This document shows, piece after piece, positions 1 through 64,000 of a stretch of 64,000 nt of DNA (position 1 is its first letter; every line of letters starts with the position of its first letter). The position numbers were made by a program. Origin of the DNA: Pseudobdellovibrionaceae bacterium (GTDB lineage: Bacteria; Bdellovibrionota; Bdellovibrionia; Bdellovibrionales; Bdellovibrionaceae); NCBI GenBank assembly GCA_039810425.1, contig JBDHWW010000015.1, positions 1 through 64,000 of the forward strand, given 5' to 3'.

Positions 1-3000
1 GTCTATTTTTAGGCTAGCATGAGGTCCATTTGTGGATGTTCCCCTGAGGGGATGCTCGCTTTCTTACATTGTCTTTGTATTCGATCCCTTGCCACATGAA
101 GGTTCCCGCATAGAAGGGATTCCTAATTCTTCTCTCGATTGCGGAGACGTAATAGGTCTTCATTTCCTTATCGTTCAACAAACGATCCGGGTGCTCCATG
201 ATCTTGCGTCTGATTTCTTCGTAAGAAAGCCCTAATGCGCGATACTTAAACTCAAGTTGCGCTTGGAGAACCTTTTTAGGGTTTGGATCAGGAACAACGA
301 TTGCCCCGCGTTTTCTTTCGCGTCCGTCATCATCCATGCTCTTCTTCAAAGCATATCCCAAAGGAACGTGATTGCTCGGGAACCAGCCACGTTCTGCCTT
401 GTCCCTCATGGCATCAATAACTTTCACGCTGATTGTTCGGCTTAACTGTTTATCCCTCCAAGCATCAATTTCCCGGTGACTAAAATCCGACGGTGCGCTG
501 AAGCGATGAAGCTGGCGGTTGTCTCGAACATAGTGAACCACGATGCGATCACTCAGGATCAGCTTCTCCATTTTTTCTAAATCCGTGAAATTTCTGACTT
601 CACGATCAGTCATGTAATACAAGAAGTGACGAATTTTATTCTTTAACGCCCATTCGACGGCCGCATGAAACTTCCGACGGAAATCGGAATCCTTTGCAGA
701 CTCGATCATGTTTTCCAACTTCACCAGCTCGATGCCGTTGTGTTCACAGTAAGCGCGGATCTCTTTTTCTTGCACCATCGCCGAAGAGTTGTCTTCTTGT
801 CCGTACCAACTGCGCCGAACAAAGGCGAACCCCTGACGATTTTCTCCCATCCATACCGGAGCACCATCACGCTCCGCCATTTCAAGGCGTTTTCTTTCAT
901 ATTGGTTATTTCTTGATGAGTAGCTTGAACTCATTGTTCCTCCGTTTCTTGTGCAGAAAATTCCGCACCGTTATCGGCGGCTTCGCATTCCTCCAAGCGC
1001 AAACGCTCGTGGCGCTTTTCCCGCCAGAGTTTTAAAATCCTAAAAACATCAATTAAATTCTCCTGTTCTTCAGGAGACAGAACGCTTTCTTCCACTAGGG
1101 ACCTCGTTTTCCCAGAGACCGAAGCGCGTTGAACGCTTCACATCTCAGCGACGATTTCAGAACCGTCGCGCTCGTTTCCCACTCATGCGGGTGAGCCCAG
1201 AAAAACTAGGTACTCGTGAAAGAGGCCCACACATGAGGCCTCTGCTTAAATTTAGAAATCAGTAGTCGGACGCAAACCCAATCGTTAAAACTCGGTTTCC
1301 GTCTTCCTGATGAAATTCATAGTTGTCGTCGTAGTAGTCGAACTTGAAGAAAAACGTTTCGCCATCAACCTCAAAGAAGGCGCAGTCATGCTCCCCATGA
1401 GGGTCATTCTGAGGTGTGAAAGCGTTGAAGCTGCGTACCGCAGTGATAACGTCCTCTTTCTTCGGTGATGCGTTCAAAGCGTGGGTGATATTCACTCGGC
1501 AGCCGATGAACGTTTGGCGATACAAGTCGTTCTTTTGCGCGATGGTTTTCATGTTTCCCCCTTAAAGCCCTTGATGAGCTCGGAGCTGCCTTCGACTTCC
1601 ATCACCACGGATTCGCCATCGGTATAGACGACGCATTTTTCCTTCACAAAATGCAGAACAATCTTGTTTTCTAAAATGAGATCGGAACACCATTCATCAG
1701 ATGCCAAGTTCCTCTCAAAGCGCGACCTTTGCTCAAAGATGACGTGACGGATTTTTTTCCGCACAGCCAACTTGATGAAGTATTCGCGCTGAGATCCTTT
1801 GAAGCGAAGTCCGGGCTCAATCACTCGCGCAATGGATTCATCCGGCAAACGTAAGTCGTTCGCTCGTGCGTAGGACCGAACGGCTATGCCTTGATCCCGA
1901 AAACTTGCCTCGGGATCGGCTTGATTGATGGAAGCTGCTCTCAATATAGCGATGGCATGACCGTTGCCACCTCGCCACGTTTGATTTTTCATTTTAATCC
2001 TTTCGCCAGTTCGTCAGGCCCTGGCTGTTTTTTTCTGCACGTCATGCAGTAGTAAGGATGAAAACCGGAATCACGATCCGGGTACTTTGAAACAATCATG
2101 TCCTTTCCACAGCAAACGGGAATTTTTAGGTGTGCAACGACAGCGAGTTTTTCTTTCGATGCCGCTACGGTTTTTCGCTCCTGTTTTCTTGCGGGAGACC
2201 CTTCGGCAAGCGCCTTCTTGGTTTGCGCCGGAGTTTCGTCAAGTTCCATGTCTTGGGTGAAATAATCGGACGCGCCGGTTGCAATGATCGTCGCCCCAAT
2301 CATGGATCTTTTTTGAGTCATCTTCATGAGCGTGTTTAAGATGTCGCAGACCGGAGTTTCCTCTTTCAGCGATTCCGTTATTTCTTCACCCCCTGGAAGT
2401 TGTTTTTTCTTCCATGCGGTGCGCTCACGATATTTATTCTCTTGAGAATTGGTGATGCCTTCGCAATCCGCGATGACGACACCAGACCGGAGGTCGTAAA
2501 CCTCCGAGCGATAAGTGAACATTGCAAAGTTGCCTTGGCGGTCGATCAGTTTATCAACCTGACGGTTACGGCACCCCAGCTTGAAAAGCTTCAGGAGTTT
2601 TTCGGCCCCTGGTTTGAGCAAGCTTTTCTTTTTTGAACCTGGGATGATGCCGTAATCGCCTTCGCCGTAGTCCTCGGCATTCGGGTTGCTGAACTGAGCT
2701 TCCCGCATTTGCGAGGAAATGAACTCTTTCAGCAACTTTTTGTGAGCTTTCAAGGCCGTTAAATCTTGCTTCGTAATCAAAGGCGTCTGAGCCAGGGAAA
2801 ACGGCTGTTGCGGAATAAGTTCTGCTACGGCGTTTTTCATACATTGGCCCCTTTAGACTTTTTCACGGCATCCAAGCGCACAGTCCAAGACTCGGACCCT
2901 TTTTTGCGGAACGCTTCGAGATAGTCGTCTTTCAGCTCGTGACGAGCCTTCGCTATTTCTGGAACCGCAAGAAGATCCAGTGAGCCTTGTCTGTTCACTT

Positions 3001-63000: not shown

Positions 63001-64000
63001 AGCACGTCGGCGTTGAGCGCATCTTGAAACGTGGGCTCCGCTCGGTCCTCGCGCGCAAAGTCCTTCGTGATCTGATCGAACAAAAAGGGCACGGACCACC
63101 AGACCATGTGAGGCACTTTTTCGGTGGACGCTTCAAAATAGCGGTGAACAAAAGATCCCATGAGGTGACTCTTGCCGCTACCGGGAGGCCCCTGAAACCA
63201 AAAGCCATAGTGATCCGTTGGCCGCCATCGCTTCACAAGTTCCAACTCTCGCGCGCAATCCGGGTCCACTTGAAAACTTGAAAGCGTTTTAGCCATCACG
63301 TTGCCCGGAAAGCCTGAGCGTTTCAGGACGTGATTGATTTCTTGTTTTCGCCGAATGGCGGCCGCCGCGTGCGCGCGCTCGCGCATTCTGGATTCACAGT
63401 TGAGGTGCGTGATGGGCCGCCACGCAAGACGTGACAAAACCGTGCGCGGAAGCGCGGAGGAGTCCTTTGCCGAAAACTCGGGGTTCTTTTCGTACTGAAA
63501 AACCTCGCCGCATTCAGGGCACCGATCCTGTGGGGTTTCCAGGTCATCGGCACTGGAAACAATGATCGGAGTGAACGCCTTAGCCATTGGCTGCATTGAC
63601 GCCTCCAACTTCCCCCAGAGTCTCGGTTTTGATTTTCTCGATTACGGCATCAAGGTCTTCTTCGCGCTCATGAGCTCCGGCAGGCCGAGTATATCCCCCC
63701 TTCGAGAAAGACGAATTGCTCGGAAGCCTTGACGTGTGGTCATCCCACCCCCGCGACAGCCAGTTTCCCAGGAACCGAGGGAAGTTTTTCTTTCGCTTGT
63801 GGGGGTTCATCGTTTCCCAGGCGAGAGCCTTGAACACTTGCTGCGCGACCCATTTCGGATCGGGATACGCATCAAGCAGAGCTTGCTGAGTTTCGATGGG
63901 AACTTTACGTTGAAGAAATGTCAGCTCAAGTTTGGATTCAGGATCAAAAGGCCGAAGGGCTTCAGCGAGAAGGCTCGGCATTTCCGGTGCCGAGCTATCA

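What a model noticed while it worked through the whole genome (the two positions that open the first line are those of the whole stretch)
1..64000. Integrated dwarf-myovirus prophage split by a 20.7-kb heavy-metal and fluoride resistance island
Contig C15 is almost wholly a prophage of the phiPLPE/Bdellovibrio-phage-1402-like dwarf myovirus kind, but its portal gene (g01444, 29109-30437) and large terminase (g01466, 51218-52663), which should be neighbours, are separated by 20.7 kb that encode Czc-type RND efflux, two CueR-type regulators, a multicopper oxidase, a Cu/Ag P-type ATPase, a CDF transporter, RcnR-type repressors, ferroportin-like FPN1 and a fluoride-riboswitch-controlled CLC channel; the phage also carries FolE-QueD-QueE-QueC plus a DpdA-like transglycosylase. 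I read this as a temperate phage of a bacterial predator that modifies its DNA with a 7-deazaguanine and has become the vehicle (or the landing pad) of a complete [...]
Evidence so far: Gene table: structural genes g01424-g01444 (baseplate, E217_GP41, Dit_like, tape measure, tube KPP10_Orf10, sheath DUF3383, terminator, Major_capside, Phage_Mu_F, Phage_portal_3), then g01446-g01465 metal genes (CzcA 45.8% id, P-type ATPase 54.3%, ZitB 47.2%, multicopper oxidase 36.8%), then TerL g01466. rna.tsv: fluoride riboswitch C15:51078-51151(-), 48 bits, in front of CLC g01465. PHROGs: g01472 queuine tRNA-ribosyltransferase-like E 2e-29 (DpdA type), g01473 ParB-like. TerL tblastn against 50,697 phage records: best Aeromonas phage 56/vB_AsaM-56, 37% identity over 94%; genomes of the best hits 43-62 kb; that phage group includes Bdellovibrio phages (PMC3391216, abstract start seen in ca The finding spans contig positions 1 to 69367; this window holds only 1 to 64000 of it. 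[...]
(Added by a program. Inside this text positions count along the whole contig: contig position 1 is position 1 of the stretch shown here. "Call 12" and the like, gene names such as g00115 and contig names such as C1 are that model's own, and its searches are not shown. The text may have been shortened before it was handed on; [...] marks where a part breaks off. The agent that wrote the report below was given it as the finding of a first reader that could run no searches.)

Follow-up and report, generated by a model that had tools for sequence, protein, structure and literature searches.

The report
Phage cargo slot holding metal-resistance island
A dormant virus in a Bdellovibrio-type predatory bacterium carries a 20.7-kb block of copper, zinc/cobalt and fluoride resistance genes at a fixed spot between two of its core genes, a spot where its relatives carry other swappable cargo.

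Summary
Contig C15 carries a full myovirus gene set. Its portal (29109-30437, -) and large terminase (51218-52666, -) are separated by 20.7 kb holding 19 ORFs for metal and fluoride resistance, plus a fluoride riboswitch (48 bits).

It is not an assembly artefact. Contigs from four runs of four studies cover 29800-49799 at 99% identity or more, with even depth, and bridge the portal-side junction. The terminase-side junction has all its sampled words in eight runs.

The new point is that this is not a random insertion. In relatives with 85-89% identical TerL, homology stops at the terL stop codon. It resumes about 52 nt before the portal start. Between these points lie 2.1 kb, more than 10 kb, more than 10 kb, or here 20,727 nt of different cargo. 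One relative has a second, only 48% identical, riboswitch-plus-CLC fluoride unit.

So this is a lineage-specific cargo hotspot. The "phiPLPE/phi1402-like dwarf myovirus" label is weak: 8-9 of 82 ORFs match at 23-43%. The 7-deazaguanine module is supported, because the DpdA-like protein folds as a tRNA-guanine transglycosylase (Z 13-14).

Integration and packaging of the 64-69 kb element remain unproven. I rate it a new variant of a known kind.

The parts
14..934 (-). Serine recombinase, 306 aa, short for a large serine integrase. It ends 13 nt from the contig end.
   Evidence: Pfam Resolvase 5.8e-07 and Recombinase 1.8e-04; phrog_95 integrase 1.9e-17, matching profile positions 84-325 of 651.
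1259..4449 (-). Early/recombination genes, including a RecE-like exonuclease with a zinc-finger domain (2837-4141).
   Evidence: DUF3768, DUF3268 and YqaJ; phrog_434 2.1e-45.
4792..5460 (+). CI-like helix-turn-helix repressor, divergent from the early genes.
   Evidence: HTH_3 3.2e-08; PHROG transcriptional repressor families.
8357..9049 (-). Endolysin (peptidoglycan-binding domain plus M15 peptidase).
11651..23516 (-). Tail module: RCC1-repeat fibre, baseplate wedge, hub and spike, Dit-like protein, tape measure, chaperone, tube, sheath and terminator.
   Evidence: Syntenic at 55-94% aa in L012, L013 and L014.
23513..29108 (-). Neck and head module: major capsid 25377-26309, cement 26338-26844, DUF2213 26872-28113, MuF 28218-29108.
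   Evidence: syntenic relatives.
29109..30437 (-). Portal protein.
   Evidence: Phage_portal_3 2.5e-69; 72-74% aa to L011-L014 and L043.
30438..30490 (-). Conserved portal leader carrying a small palindrome and the motif GAAGACTAAGCGGTGA. This is the left border of the hotspot.
   Evidence: Alignment, sequence. Homology to L012 starts at window 30490.
30491..51217 (.). Cargo hotspot filling: 20,727 nt, 19 ORFs and one riboswitch.
   Evidence: Borders; gene content; counts.
30658..31416 (-). 252-aa VOC/glyoxalase-like protein followed by a terminator-like hairpin. A 62% identical paralogue lies on C16.
31598..33677 (+). Two CsoR/RcnR-family repressors followed by a ferroportin-like FPN1 transporter.
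   Evidence: PF02583 3.1e-19 and 9.5e-06; FPN1 2.1e-62.
34254..39084 (+). Outer-membrane factor, a 140-aa CzcB_C-like mini-adaptor, and a CusA/CzcA-family RND pump.
   Evidence: A paralogous trio lies on C28, with the RND at 60% aa.
39094..41455 (+). HupE/UreJ-type transporter, DUF6488 protein and an AraC regulator.
41458..45714 (-). Copper block: CueR no. 1, multicopper oxidase 42476-44803 with Met/His-rich repeats, CopM/DUF305, and CueR no. 2. A 144-aa ORF of unknown family lies on the + strand at 41924-42358. Four CueR-box-like palindromes lie at 40382-40407, 41875-41901, 45730-45755 and 45829-45854.
45854..49753 (+). Copper P1B-type ATPase with N-terminal YHS/TRASH repeats, followed by a ZitB-like CDF transporter.
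49760..51061 (-). CLC-type channel/antiporter of the fluoride kind, co-oriented with terL.
   Evidence: Voltage_CLC 7.6e-68. GREGT motif is present; that it marks the fluoride subtype is recalled. 48% aa to the riboswitch-linked CLC of L040.
51078..51151 (-). Fluoride riboswitch aptamer, starting 66 nt after the terL stop codon.
   Evidence: RF01734, 48 bits against a gathering score of 34, E 3.2e-10.
51218..53090 (-). Large terminase and TerS-like DUF5681 protein. The right border of the hotspot is the terL stop codon.
   Evidence: alignment.
53149..55440 (-). FolE, QueE, QueD and QueC (the preQ0 pathway).
   Evidence: FolE and QueC score above the NCBIfam cut-offs; QueE and QueD score below them but above the Pfam cut-offs.
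55444..56875 (-). DpdA-like DNA transglycosylase and an overlapping ParB-like gene.
   Evidence: phrog_887 2.1e-29. Model pLDDT 91.3. The top 50 structural matches are all tRNA-guanine transglycosylase family, Z 13.1-13.8, including DpdA 7ui4. 228 phage records match.
58463..63608 (-). DUF1064 resolvase-like protein, methyltransferase-like protein, AbiEii/AbiEi pair and a DnaC-like helicase loader. An AraC regulator lies on the + strand at 59217-60080.

Best explanation
C15 is the genome of a temperate myovirus-type phage of a Bdellovibrio-lineage bacterium. The 20,727 nt between the terL stop codon and about 52 nt upstream of the portal start codon fill a lineage-specific accessory-gene hotspot.

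Shown here:
- The borders are the same to the base in every relative compared.
- The contents differ between relatives: 2.1 kb, more than 10 kb twice, at least 1.3 kb, and 20.7 kb.
- Two phages that are 92-93% identical in DNA differ by a resistance insert of at least 8 kb.

Inferred:
- Cargo is gained and swapped by recombination anchored in the conserved terL and portal flanks. The phage's own RecE-type system may help. No transposase, integrase or flanking repeat is involved.
- The slot tolerates cargo because the portal carries its own conserved leader, so head and tail genes need not be read through from terL.
- The cargo was drawn from Bdellovibrionaceae-type chromosomes.
- The cargo is self-regulated by two CueR with their boxes, two CsoR/RcnR repressors, an AraC regulator and a fluoride riboswitch.
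- It is therefore expressed in the lysogen and gives it tolerance to copper, zinc, cobalt, nickel and fluoride in wastewater-type habitats.
- A second variable slot upstream of terS holds the folE-queE-queD-queC-dpdA module, predicted to put preQ0 into phage DNA against restriction. Relatives have a DNA methyltransferase there.
For: Gene content.

The slot in relatives:
- L011 and L043 run TerS, TerL (87-88% aa), then DUF4238 plus a 2-hydroxyacid dehydrogenase (2.1 kb), then portal (73%).
- L040 has the same two genes, then a fluoride riboswitch (44.9 bits), CLC, DUF190, pyrophosphatase, MFS, DsrE, an ArsC-type phosphatase, MIP, MerR, DoxX, a chromate transporter and TauE. No portal is reached within 10 kb.
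- L041 has a ParB-like nuclease, a two-component system, PepSY, OEP, a 170-aa protein, an RND pump, carbonic anhydrase and a phosphoesterase. No portal is reached within 10 kb.
- L012 has a CsoR/RcnR-type gene (3.2e-26) directly beside the portal.

Borders: homology ends at the terL stop codon in all 6 sequences aligned and resumes at window 30490. L040 and L043/L011 are 92-93% identical in DNA until 148 nt before the portal.

Distant relatives keep terL and portal within 0.8 kb: phage 56, phi1422, L016 and L020.

The assembly is real. No loose end at 30490 and no island-free joint appeared in the 4 runs laid.

Cargo origin: 63-76% DNA identity to clusters in 82 of 100 other genomes of the same family or order. 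The OEP, small-protein, RND trio is paralogous to one on C28. Tetranucleotide correlation with the genome is 0.905 for the island and 0.909 for the phage, against 0.952 +/- 0.045 for genome chunks. The nearest Atlas clusters are Bdellovibrionota.

Host name: a cluster member 90% or more identical to the CLC is labelled Bdellovibrio sp. HAGR004.
Against: - No relative with a large cargo could be read from terL through to the portal. The L040 and L041 loci end inside the cargo, and their records could not be extended.
- No recombination event was observed, so the mechanism is inferred.
- With cargo the element is 64.5-69.4 kb. The 30 phages with the most similar capsid protein listed have genomes up to 62 kb (one 28-kb record aside), so full packaging is doubtful.
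- The recombinase is only 306 aa.
- Neither contig end reaches host DNA. Integration and activity are not shown.
- The consensus scan found no promoter in front of the riboswitch. By eye there is only a weak 8-of-12 match.
- Only 5 relatives with TerL of 85% or more were found, and three of them (L011, L043, L040) belong to one sub-lineage.
Confidence: 0.66

Rival explanations
1. Decaying prophage used as a landing pad. The phage is no longer able to make infectious particles, and chromosome-type resistance genes have accumulated in a neutral gap. The island then moves only with the host chromosome.
For: - The element is 64.5-69.4 kb, against up to 62 kb for phages with the nearest capsid proteins and 43.5-48.5 kb for the phiPLPE group (PMC3391216 passages).
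- The serine recombinase is short, 306 aa matching only the first half of the profile.
- The cargo genes look native to the host lineage.
- The sequence is near-clonal across runs, with 4 shared differences in 20 kb, as expected for vertical spread with one strain.
Against: - All 63 non-cargo ORFs examined are open and of normal length. None of the Pfam or PHROG matches in the structural module is truncated.
- The cargo borders coincide to the base with those of relatives that have small cargo. Random decay would not preserve this.
- Several relatives carry different cargo at the same point.
Confidence: 0.2
2. Phage-plasmid. The element replicates as an extrachromosomal hybrid of phage and plasmid, and the terL-portal region is its accessory compartment, as earlier notes of this scan describe for chlamydial megaplasmids.
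For: - The contig has no host flank at either end.
- It has its own replication genes (a DnaC-like loader), a ParB-like gene and a resolvase-type recombinase.
- Proteins 90% or more identical, including one named from Bdellovibrio sp. HAGR004, have a longest contig of only 105,425 nt.
- Earlier notes e1-3004998 and e1-4570017 describe such a case. These are AI notes and were not checked here.
Against: - No ParA or plasmid initiator family was detected.
- The ParB-like protein resembles the N-terminal domain of phage ParB-methyltransferase fusions (phrog_498).
- There is no match in 72,556 plasmid records.
- Portal, capsid, DpdA and oxidase variants share a longest contig of 545,821 nt, which is chromosome-sized.
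- C15 has no terminal overlap of 20-299 nt that would indicate a circle.
Confidence: 0.07
3. Assembly or binning artefact. The phage halves and the island come from different molecules or organisms.
For: - The genome is a 149-contig draft with 2.7% contamination.
- Both contig ends are graph forks.
Against: - Contigs from 4 runs of 4 studies cover 29800-49799 at 99% or more, with equal depth on the phage and island parts: 16.5 against 15.6, 10.7 against 10.9, and 8.7 against 8.6.
- Contigs in X1, X2 and X8 bridge the portal-side junction.
- All sampled words of 49800-52600 are present in 8 runs.
- No sequence is shared with other contigs apart from one 77-nt dispersed repeat and a 63-68% identical RND paralogue.
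- Relatives show the same architecture.
Confidence: 0.02

Closest known systems
Accessory-gene (moron or defence) hotspots of temperate phages, for example the P2/P4 hotspots and lambda morons
   Same: Variable cargo sits between conserved core genes. The borders are sharp, the contents differ between close relatives, and the cargo has no recombinase of its own.
   Different: The size is 20.7 kb and 19 ORFs, about 30% of the contig. The content is multi-operon metal and fluoride resistance with its own sensors, not defence or virulence genes. The position is inside the packaging-head block, between terL and portal. The host lineage is Bdellovibrio.
phiPLPE-group dwarf myoviruses (Aeromonas phage 56, NC_019527; Bdellovibrio phage phi1422, JQ177062; PMC3391216, passages read)
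   Same: The gene order is terminase, portal, head, tail, baseplate, fibres. TerL's best named match is phage 56 at 37%. The size without cargo, about 44-49 kb, is similar.
   Different: Only 8 and 9 of 82 ORFs match, at 23-43%. The portal is closer to Synechococcus phage S-CBS4 (32%) and the sheath to 95-100-kb Pseudomonas phages (36-39%). In those phages terL and portal are 0-0.8 kb apart. This element has lysogeny genes.
Phage 7-deazaguanine DNA modification (DpdA with FolE, QueD, QueE and QueC, as in phages CAjan and iggy; PMC6884629 and PMC10484667 seen as search listing and abstract start only; bioRxiv 10.1101/2023.04.13.536721 passages read)
   Same: The four preQ0 genes and a TGT-fold transglycosylase lie in one operon next to the packaging genes. 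No QueF, amidotransferase or DpdC is present, so dPreQ0 is the predicted product.
   Different: The transglycosylase matches no Pfam, NCBIfam or PADLOC model. It belongs to a family of 1046 unnamed proteins. It lies in a prophage of Bdellovibrio.
Chromosomal cop/cue and czc-type clusters of Bdellovibrionaceae-type genomes
   Same: The gene sets and local orders are the same at 63-76% DNA identity, for example the RND plus HupE unit in G014 and G003 and the oxidase, CueR and ATPase groups in G007, G019, G046, G081 and G100.
   Different: Here they are assembled into one block inside a phage. The oxidase, CueR and FPN1 genes have no second copy in this genome.
Fluoride riboswitch with CLC-F units (the crcB motif, RF01734)
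   Same: An aptamer scoring above the Rfam threshold lies directly upstream of a CLC gene. The L040 unit also carries DUF190 and pyrophosphatase genes. That these are typical members of the fluoride regulon is recalled.
   Different: The unit is carried as phage cargo, immediately after terL and co-oriented with it. It was acquired twice in this phage lineage, and the two CLCs are only 48% identical.
Terminase-portal cargo compartments noted earlier in this scan (a Myxococcota prophage, chlamydial phage-plasmids, CPR prophages). These are AI notes and are not published.
   Same: Metal-resistance cargo lies between terminase and portal.
   Different: The phage lineages are unrelated: no look-alike of this TerL was found in the scan's index. 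Those claims were not checked here.

Membership tests
Prophage accessory-gene hotspot | Conserved core genes flank the site on both sides in relatives | tested here: met
   TerL is 85-89% and portal 72-74% identical in L011, L040-L043 and L012-L014.
Prophage accessory-gene hotspot | Different contents at the same site in related phages | tested here: met
   There are at least four fillings besides the window's: L011/L043, L040, L041 and L042. L012 adds a CsoR-type gene at the portal side.
Prophage accessory-gene hotspot | Sharp, shared borders | tested here: met
   Homology is lost at the terL stop codon. It resumes at window 30490, 51-53 nt before the portal start.
Self-mobile island (transposon, ICE, integron) | Own recombinase or transposase inside the island | tested here: not met
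   None of the 19 ORFs matches such a family in Pfam or NCBIfam.
Self-mobile island (transposon, ICE, integron) | Direct or inverted repeats at the borders | tested here: not met
   No pair spans 30.4-30.7 kb and 51.0-51.3 kb.
phiPLPE-group dwarf myoviruses | Conserved structural module order (terminase, portal, head, tail, baseplate, fibres) | tested here: met
   Matches to phage 56 are collinear; those to phi1422 largely so, with one exception.
phiPLPE-group dwarf myoviruses | Portal groups with the family (the coherent marker according to PMC3391216) | tested here: inconclusive
   The portal is 26% identical to phage 56 and 23% to phi1422, against 32% to S-CBS4. No tree was built.
phiPLPE-group dwarf myoviruses | Genome of about 43.5-48.5 kb and a short-tailed isometric virion | not testable with these tools
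   The prophage ends are not defined. It is about 44-49 kb without the cargo and 64.5-69.4 kb with it.
Integrated temperate prophage | Integrase and repressor genes | tested here: met
   A serine recombinase (short, 306 aa) and a CI-like HTH repressor are present.
Integrated temperate prophage | Host DNA and att sites on both sides | tested here: inconclusive
   There is no host flank on C15. The right-end 77-mer is a dispersed repeat. Indirectly, near-identical proteins occur on a 545,821-nt contig.
Phage dPreQ0 DNA-modification system | preQ0 pathway genes FolE, QueD, QueE and QueC | tested here: met
   FolE and QueC score above the NCBIfam cut-offs; QueD and QueE score above the Pfam cut-offs only.
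Phage dPreQ0 DNA-modification system | DpdA-type guanine transglycosylase | tested here: met
   phrog_887 2.1e-29. The fold matches tRNA-guanine transglycosylases and DpdA 7ui4 at Z 13.1-13.8 over 231-239 residues. Phage homologues are annotated as DpdA or TGT. Catalytic residues were not checked.
Phage dPreQ0 DNA-modification system | Modified base present in virion DNA | not testable with these tools
   This needs mass spectrometry of phage DNA.
Fluoride riboswitch with CLC-F unit | Aptamer above the Rfam gathering score, directly upstream of the transporter | tested here: met
   48 bits against 34. The aptamer ends 16 nt before the CLC start codon.
Fluoride riboswitch with CLC-F unit | Fluoride-type selectivity residues and a fluoride response | tested here: inconclusive
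   A GREGT motif is present. Its meaning is recalled, not tested, and no assay was possible.
Tripartite HME-RND efflux (CzcCBA/CusCBA) | RND pump of the CusA/CzcA family together with an outer-membrane factor | tested here: met
   TIGR00914 scores 1189.9 bits against a cut-off of 701.45; OEP 1e-20.
Tripartite HME-RND efflux (CzcCBA/CusCBA) | Full-length membrane-fusion protein | tested here: not met
   Only a 140-aa protein lies between the OEP and RND genes. It has no Pfam or NCBIfam match. The Atlas gives only a lead to CzcB_C-like clusters.
Cue/Cop copper resistance | CueR sensor, copper P1B ATPase and multicopper oxidase | tested here: met
   Two CueR score above the cut-off and TIGR01511 scores above its cut-off. 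The oxidase has all three Pfam domains but scores below the TIGR01480 cut-off, 419.9 against 478.95.

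The most novel reading that the evidence does not exclude
The hotspot sits immediately downstream of terS-terL, where headful phages usually start packaging. 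The cargo would therefore be the first DNA to enter the first capsid.

On this reading, these oversized prophages act as cargo-first transducing vehicles. A capsid built for about 45-50 kb takes up terL, the whole resistance island and the structural genes, but not a complete genome. In a new Bdellovibrio cell that carries a related prophage, the island is installed by recombination between the conserved terL and portal flanks.

This would make the lineage a dedicated shuttle for resistance islands among predatory bacteria in wastewater.
Probability: 0.1. Interest if true: 0.8.

Novelty: new variant of a known kind. Interest (0 to 1): 0.58.

Why it matters
- It shows that a complete, self-regulated multi-metal and fluoride resistance block, about 30% of the element, can sit inside the core packaging-head block of a tailed phage, at a defined and reusable site.
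- Phages are usually considered minor carriers of metal resistance.
- Prophage-calling programs are likely to cut such elements in two at the 'host-like' island. Three of the four close IMG/VR relatives that carry the portal (L012-L014) begin at or within 570 nt of it. That is a hint, not proof.
- It gives a first described lineage of temperate tailed phages for Bdellovibrio-type predators. My two literature searches found none.
- It offers a testable system for cargo exchange, for phage DNA modification with preQ0, and for riboswitch-gated phage cargo.
- The element is near-identical in wastewater, bioreactor and biofilm metagenomes of at least 11 studies, so it is ecologically real.

Tried and rejected
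- **G007 as an island-free relative.** G007 has a 47% identical TerL, but only TerL is shared, so it was not informative.
- **Genome-contig scan with the portal.** It gave a single 29% match, which was of no use.
- **Extending L040 and L041.** This failed because the records are not held. The far borders of their cargo therefore remain unseen.
- **C15 right end as an att site or link to C36.** Rejected. C15 and the reverse complement of C36 end in the same 77-mer, which is a fork and not an adjacency. The same short sequence recurs on two contigs of a same-genus genome.
- **Host flank in five same-genus genomes.** For 63.5-69.4 kb only weak 67-70% patches were found, in one genome.
- **Plasmid and phage near-identity searches.** No match in either.
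- **Sequence searches of DpdA against solved structures.** No match, with the single sequence or with the profile. Foldseek alone was ambiguous, with MTHFR and TGT both at E about 1e-4 to 1e-3. The re-alignment resolved it.
- **ParB-like gene as DpdB.** Not supported. PADLOC gives only a match to the N-domain of a type II methyltransferase.
- **L044 (TerL 57%).** The genes downstream match no family, so it was not informative.
- **Consensus promoter scan.** It found nothing in front of the riboswitch or the portal.
- **Island-free form.** None appeared as a joint or a loose end at 30490 in the four runs laid. Contigs drop rare variants and the laid stretch stopped at 49799, so this does not show absence.
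- **Earlier-notes look-ups by place and by TerL sequence.** Both returned nothing.
- **Supplementary data of the DpdA papers.** These were not consulted, so assignment to a DpdA subfamily was not attempted.

Full report
**What is in the window.**

From 8.3 to 30.4 kb, on the minus strand, lies a complete myovirus morphogenesis block. It contains endolysin, an RCC1-repeat fibre, baseplate wedge, hub and spike, Dit-like protein, tape measure, chaperone, tube, sheath and terminator. It continues with neck proteins, major capsid (PF09950, 9.5e-72), cement protein, DUF2213, MuF and portal (29109-30437, 2.5e-69).

TerL is at 51218-52666 (phrog_38, 5.8e-107), with a TerS-like gene overlapping its start. 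The left 8 kb holds a serine recombinase, a RecE-type exonuclease and a CI-like repressor. The right part holds a resolvase-like gene, an AbiE pair and a DnaC-like loader. The last 5.4 kb of the contig, outside the window, holds an MNT/HEPN pair and a sigma-70-type factor. No tRNA gene is present.

**The island.** Between portal and TerL there are 19 ORFs:
- a 252-aa VOC-like protein;
- two CsoR/RcnR-type repressors and FPN1;
- a 129-aa ORF of no known family;
- an outer-membrane factor, a 140-aa protein and a CusA/CzcA RND pump (1189.9 bits, cut-off 701);
- HupE/UreJ, DUF6488 and AraC;
- CueR, a 144-aa ORF of no known family, a three-domain multicopper oxidase with Met/His-rich repeats, CopM/DUF305 and a second CueR;
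- a copper P-type ATPase with YHS repeats and a ZitB-like CDF transporter;
- a CLC protein.

Rfam finds one element in the whole window, a fluoride riboswitch at 51078-51151 (-) scoring 48 bits against a threshold of 34. It lies 66 nt after the terL stop codon and 16 nt before the CLC start codon. Four CueR-box-like palindromes stand in the expected intergenic regions. No transposase, integrase or flanking repeat was found.

**Is the arrangement real?** Yes.
- C15 shares nothing with other contigs of the genome except a 77-nt end repeat and a 63-68% identical RND paralogue.
- A 2.8-kb stretch across CLC, riboswitch and TerL is held in 17 of 24 listed public runs at half or more of its sampled words. 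These come from 11 studies (P1-P11), and eight runs hold it at 1.00. The samples are activated sludge, bioreactor, biofilm and fermentation metagenomes.
- Thirteen of those runs are flagged as possible sources. Four runs not so flagged still hold 0.59-0.93.
- Contigs of four runs from four studies were laid on 29800-49799. They cover all 30 bins at 99% identity or more.
- Depth on the phage part equals depth on the island: 16.5 against 15.6, 10.7 against 10.9, and 8.7 against 8.6.
- Single contigs in X1, X2 and X8 bridge portal to island.
- At most one run can be the source, so at least three are independent.

**The main new result is that this is a hotspot, not an accident.** Searching public contigs with the portal and TerL gave five relatives with TerL 85-89% identical.
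- In L011 and L043 the order is TerS, TerL, two cargo genes (DUF4238 and a 2-hydroxyacid dehydrogenase, 2.1 kb), then portal (73%), MuF and so on.
- L040 lies on a 73-kb contig. It is 92-93% identical in DNA to these two through terL and both cargo genes, up to 148 nt before the portal. It then continues with a fluoride riboswitch (44.9 bits), CLC, DUF190, pyrophosphatase and MFS, followed by DsrE, an ArsC-type phosphatase, an aquaglyceroporin, MerR, DoxX, a chromate transporter and TauE. It does not reach a portal within 10 kb.
- L041 lies on a 228-kb contig. After terL it has a ParB-like nuclease, a two-component system, PepSY, an outer-membrane factor, a 170-aa protein, an RND pump, carbonic anhydrase and a phosphoesterase. 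Again no portal is reached within 10 kb.
- L042 has yet other small genes.
- L012 is 92% identical to L043 in the structural genes. It has a CsoR/RcnR-type gene (3.2e-26) directly beside the portal.

An alignment of the six terL ends shows that all homology stops at the stop codon. On the other side it resumes at window 30490, 51-53 nt before the portal start. That leader contains a small palindrome and a motif conserved in all relatives. The slot is therefore 30491-51217, which is 20,727 nt.

Distant relatives keep terL and portal 0-0.8 kb apart: phage 56, phi1422, L016 and L020.

**Where the cargo came from.** The island has no near-identical copy elsewhere. Its genes match clusters at 63-76% DNA identity in 82 of the 100 other genomes of the same family or order that were searched, often in the same local order.

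The own genome has a paralogous trio of OEP, small protein and RND pump on C28 (RND 60% aa). It has no second copy of the oxidase, CueR or FPN1. Tetranucleotide usage of the island (r 0.905) and of the phage (0.909) is within the spread of 20-kb chunks of the genome (0.952 +/- 0.045).

The CLC of the window and that of L040 are only 48% identical. The fluoride unit was therefore acquired at least twice at this site.

**Host.** The genome is 3.54 Mb with 49% G+C. A protein 90% or more identical to the CLC is named from Bdellovibrio sp. HAGR004. The nearest Atlas clusters of two cargo proteins are Bdellovibrionota. 'Phage of a bacterial predator' is thus supported at the level of lineage.

**Integration.** Integration is not shown on this contig. 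The left end stops 13 nt after a 306-aa serine recombinase. The right-end 77-mer is a dispersed repeat, and five same-genus genomes have no clear counterpart of the right 6 kb.

Indirect support comes from variants 90% or more identical of the portal, capsid, DpdA and oxidase. All four have a longest contig of 545,821 nt. TerL was not found in the six other species of the genus.

**Phage family.** The dwarf-myovirus label rests on TerL alone (37%).
- Phage 56 shares 8 of 82 ORFs and phi1422 shares 9 of 82, at 23-43% identity and largely collinear.
- The portal matches S-CBS4 best (32%).
- The sheath matches 95-100-kb Pseudomonas phages best (36-39%).
- The capsid protein matches phages of mostly 48-62 kb best (35-42%).
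- PMC3391216 (passages read) says that TerL is polyphyletic in that group and that the portal is the coherent marker. It also says that phi1402 is a separate 24-kb phage.

I therefore treat the element as a new, mosaic myovirus lineage with the same module order. I do not treat it as a member of the phiPLPE group.

**DNA modification.** FolE and QueC score above the NCBIfam cut-offs. QueE and QueD score above the Pfam cut-offs.

The 270-aa protein next to them has no Pfam, NCBIfam, PADLOC or PDB sequence match. It belongs to a family of 1046 unnamed proteins. A model built from 29 sequences has pLDDT 91.3.

After re-alignment, all 50 top structural entries belong to the tRNA-guanine transglycosylase family, with Z 13.1-13.8 over 231-239 residues. 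They include the DNA preQ0 insertase DpdA (7ui4), which has the highest identity at 16%. In addition, 228 phage records hold homologues, many annotated as queuine tRNA-ribosyltransferase or DpdA.

No QueF, amidotransferase or DpdC is present, so dPreQ0 is the predicted product. This is an inference.

L040 and L041 have a DNA methyltransferase at this position instead. This is therefore a second exchangeable slot.

**How it most likely works.**

*Shown:* the anatomy, the borders and the variability.

*Inferred:*
- Cargo moves in and out by recombination in the conserved terL and portal flanks.
- The portal's own conserved leader lets the head and tail genes be expressed whatever lies upstream.
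- The cargo is expressed in the lysogen under its own sensors.
- The riboswitch leader ends in a hairpin that would cover the AGGAG just before the TTG start codon. This is my reading of the sequence printed and suggests translational control.

**The open problem is size.** The element is about 44-49 kb without cargo and 64.5-69.4 kb with it. That is above the genomes of all 30 listed phages with the nearest capsid proteins, which reach 62 kb at most. The element is therefore either packaged only in part or no longer a free-living phage. I could not decide this.

**Literature and earlier notes.**
- Searches for prophage, heavy-metal resistance, terminase and portal cargo, for 'fluoride riboswitch' with 'prophage' (5 papers, none on this topic) and for Bdellovibrio prophages found no description of such an element. 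These searches cover open-access papers only.
- Earlier notes of this scan report metal cargo between terminase and portal in unrelated phages and phage-plasmids of other phyla. They are unchecked AI notes. I used them only to add the phage-plasmid rival and to temper the novelty score.

**Verdict.** It is a new variant of the known phage cargo-hotspot theme. It is notable for the size and completeness of the resistance block, its place inside the packaging-head block, the repeated capture of fluoride units, and its host lineage.

Noticed in passing
window 35519-35941; also G000 C28 about 17022-17447 and L041 16164-16676: RND metal pumps here have a 140-170-aa protein where a 350-450-aa membrane-fusion protein is expected. 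The same trio of OEP, small protein and RND occurs on the chromosome (33% aa) and in a relative's cargo. The Atlas points to Bdellovibrionota clusters and, more distantly, to CzcB_C-like proteins. It may be a minimal adaptor.
   Followed up: partly
window 53149-56875 compared with L040 8292-9581 and L041 7802-9187: There is a second variable slot just upstream of terS. The window has folE-queE-queD-queC-dpdA-parB-like there, where the relatives have an N6/N4 DNA methyltransferase.
   Followed up: partly
window 10634-11641: A family-9 glycosyltransferase (heptosyltransferase-like) gene lies between the fibre and lysis genes. It may be a surface-modifying moron.
   Followed up: no
window 61132-62645; C15 65230-65968: An AbiEii/AbiEi pair (PADLOC 6.4e-74 and 4.5e-67) and an MNT/HEPN pair are carried by the element.
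   Followed up: no
window 46938-47294: One run (X2) has a contig that skips 355 nt in the repeated YHS-domain region of the copper ATPase. This looks like a repeat-number variant. The shorter side of the joint is only 23 nt, so it is weak.
   Followed up: no
window 43548-43795: Eight tandem 24-nt units encode a Met/His-rich stretch inside the multicopper oxidase.
   Followed up: no
C15 69291-69367; C36 1-77; G004 C13 and C2: A short dispersed repeat ends the contig and recurs in a same-genus genome. It explains the assembly fork at the right end.
   Followed up: partly
L012, L013 and L014 (IMG/VR): Three related viral contigs start within the portal gene or 567 nt before it. This would be expected if assemblers or provirus callers break at the host-like cargo.
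   Followed up: no
L040 13511-17001: A relative's cargo carries what looks like a whole fluoride regulon behind one riboswitch: CLC, DUF190, inorganic pyrophosphatase and an MFS transporter.
   Followed up: partly
window 30911-30945: In run X1 a 35-nt node of double depth branches to another 2.7-kb contig. This is probably the 62% identical paralogue of the 252-aa gene on C16.
   Followed up: no
window 51218-53090 compared with relatives: TerL is 85-89% identical in the relatives while the adjacent TerS-like protein is only 52-54% and MuF is 55-60%. The packaging enzyme is much more conserved than its neighbours.
   Followed up: no
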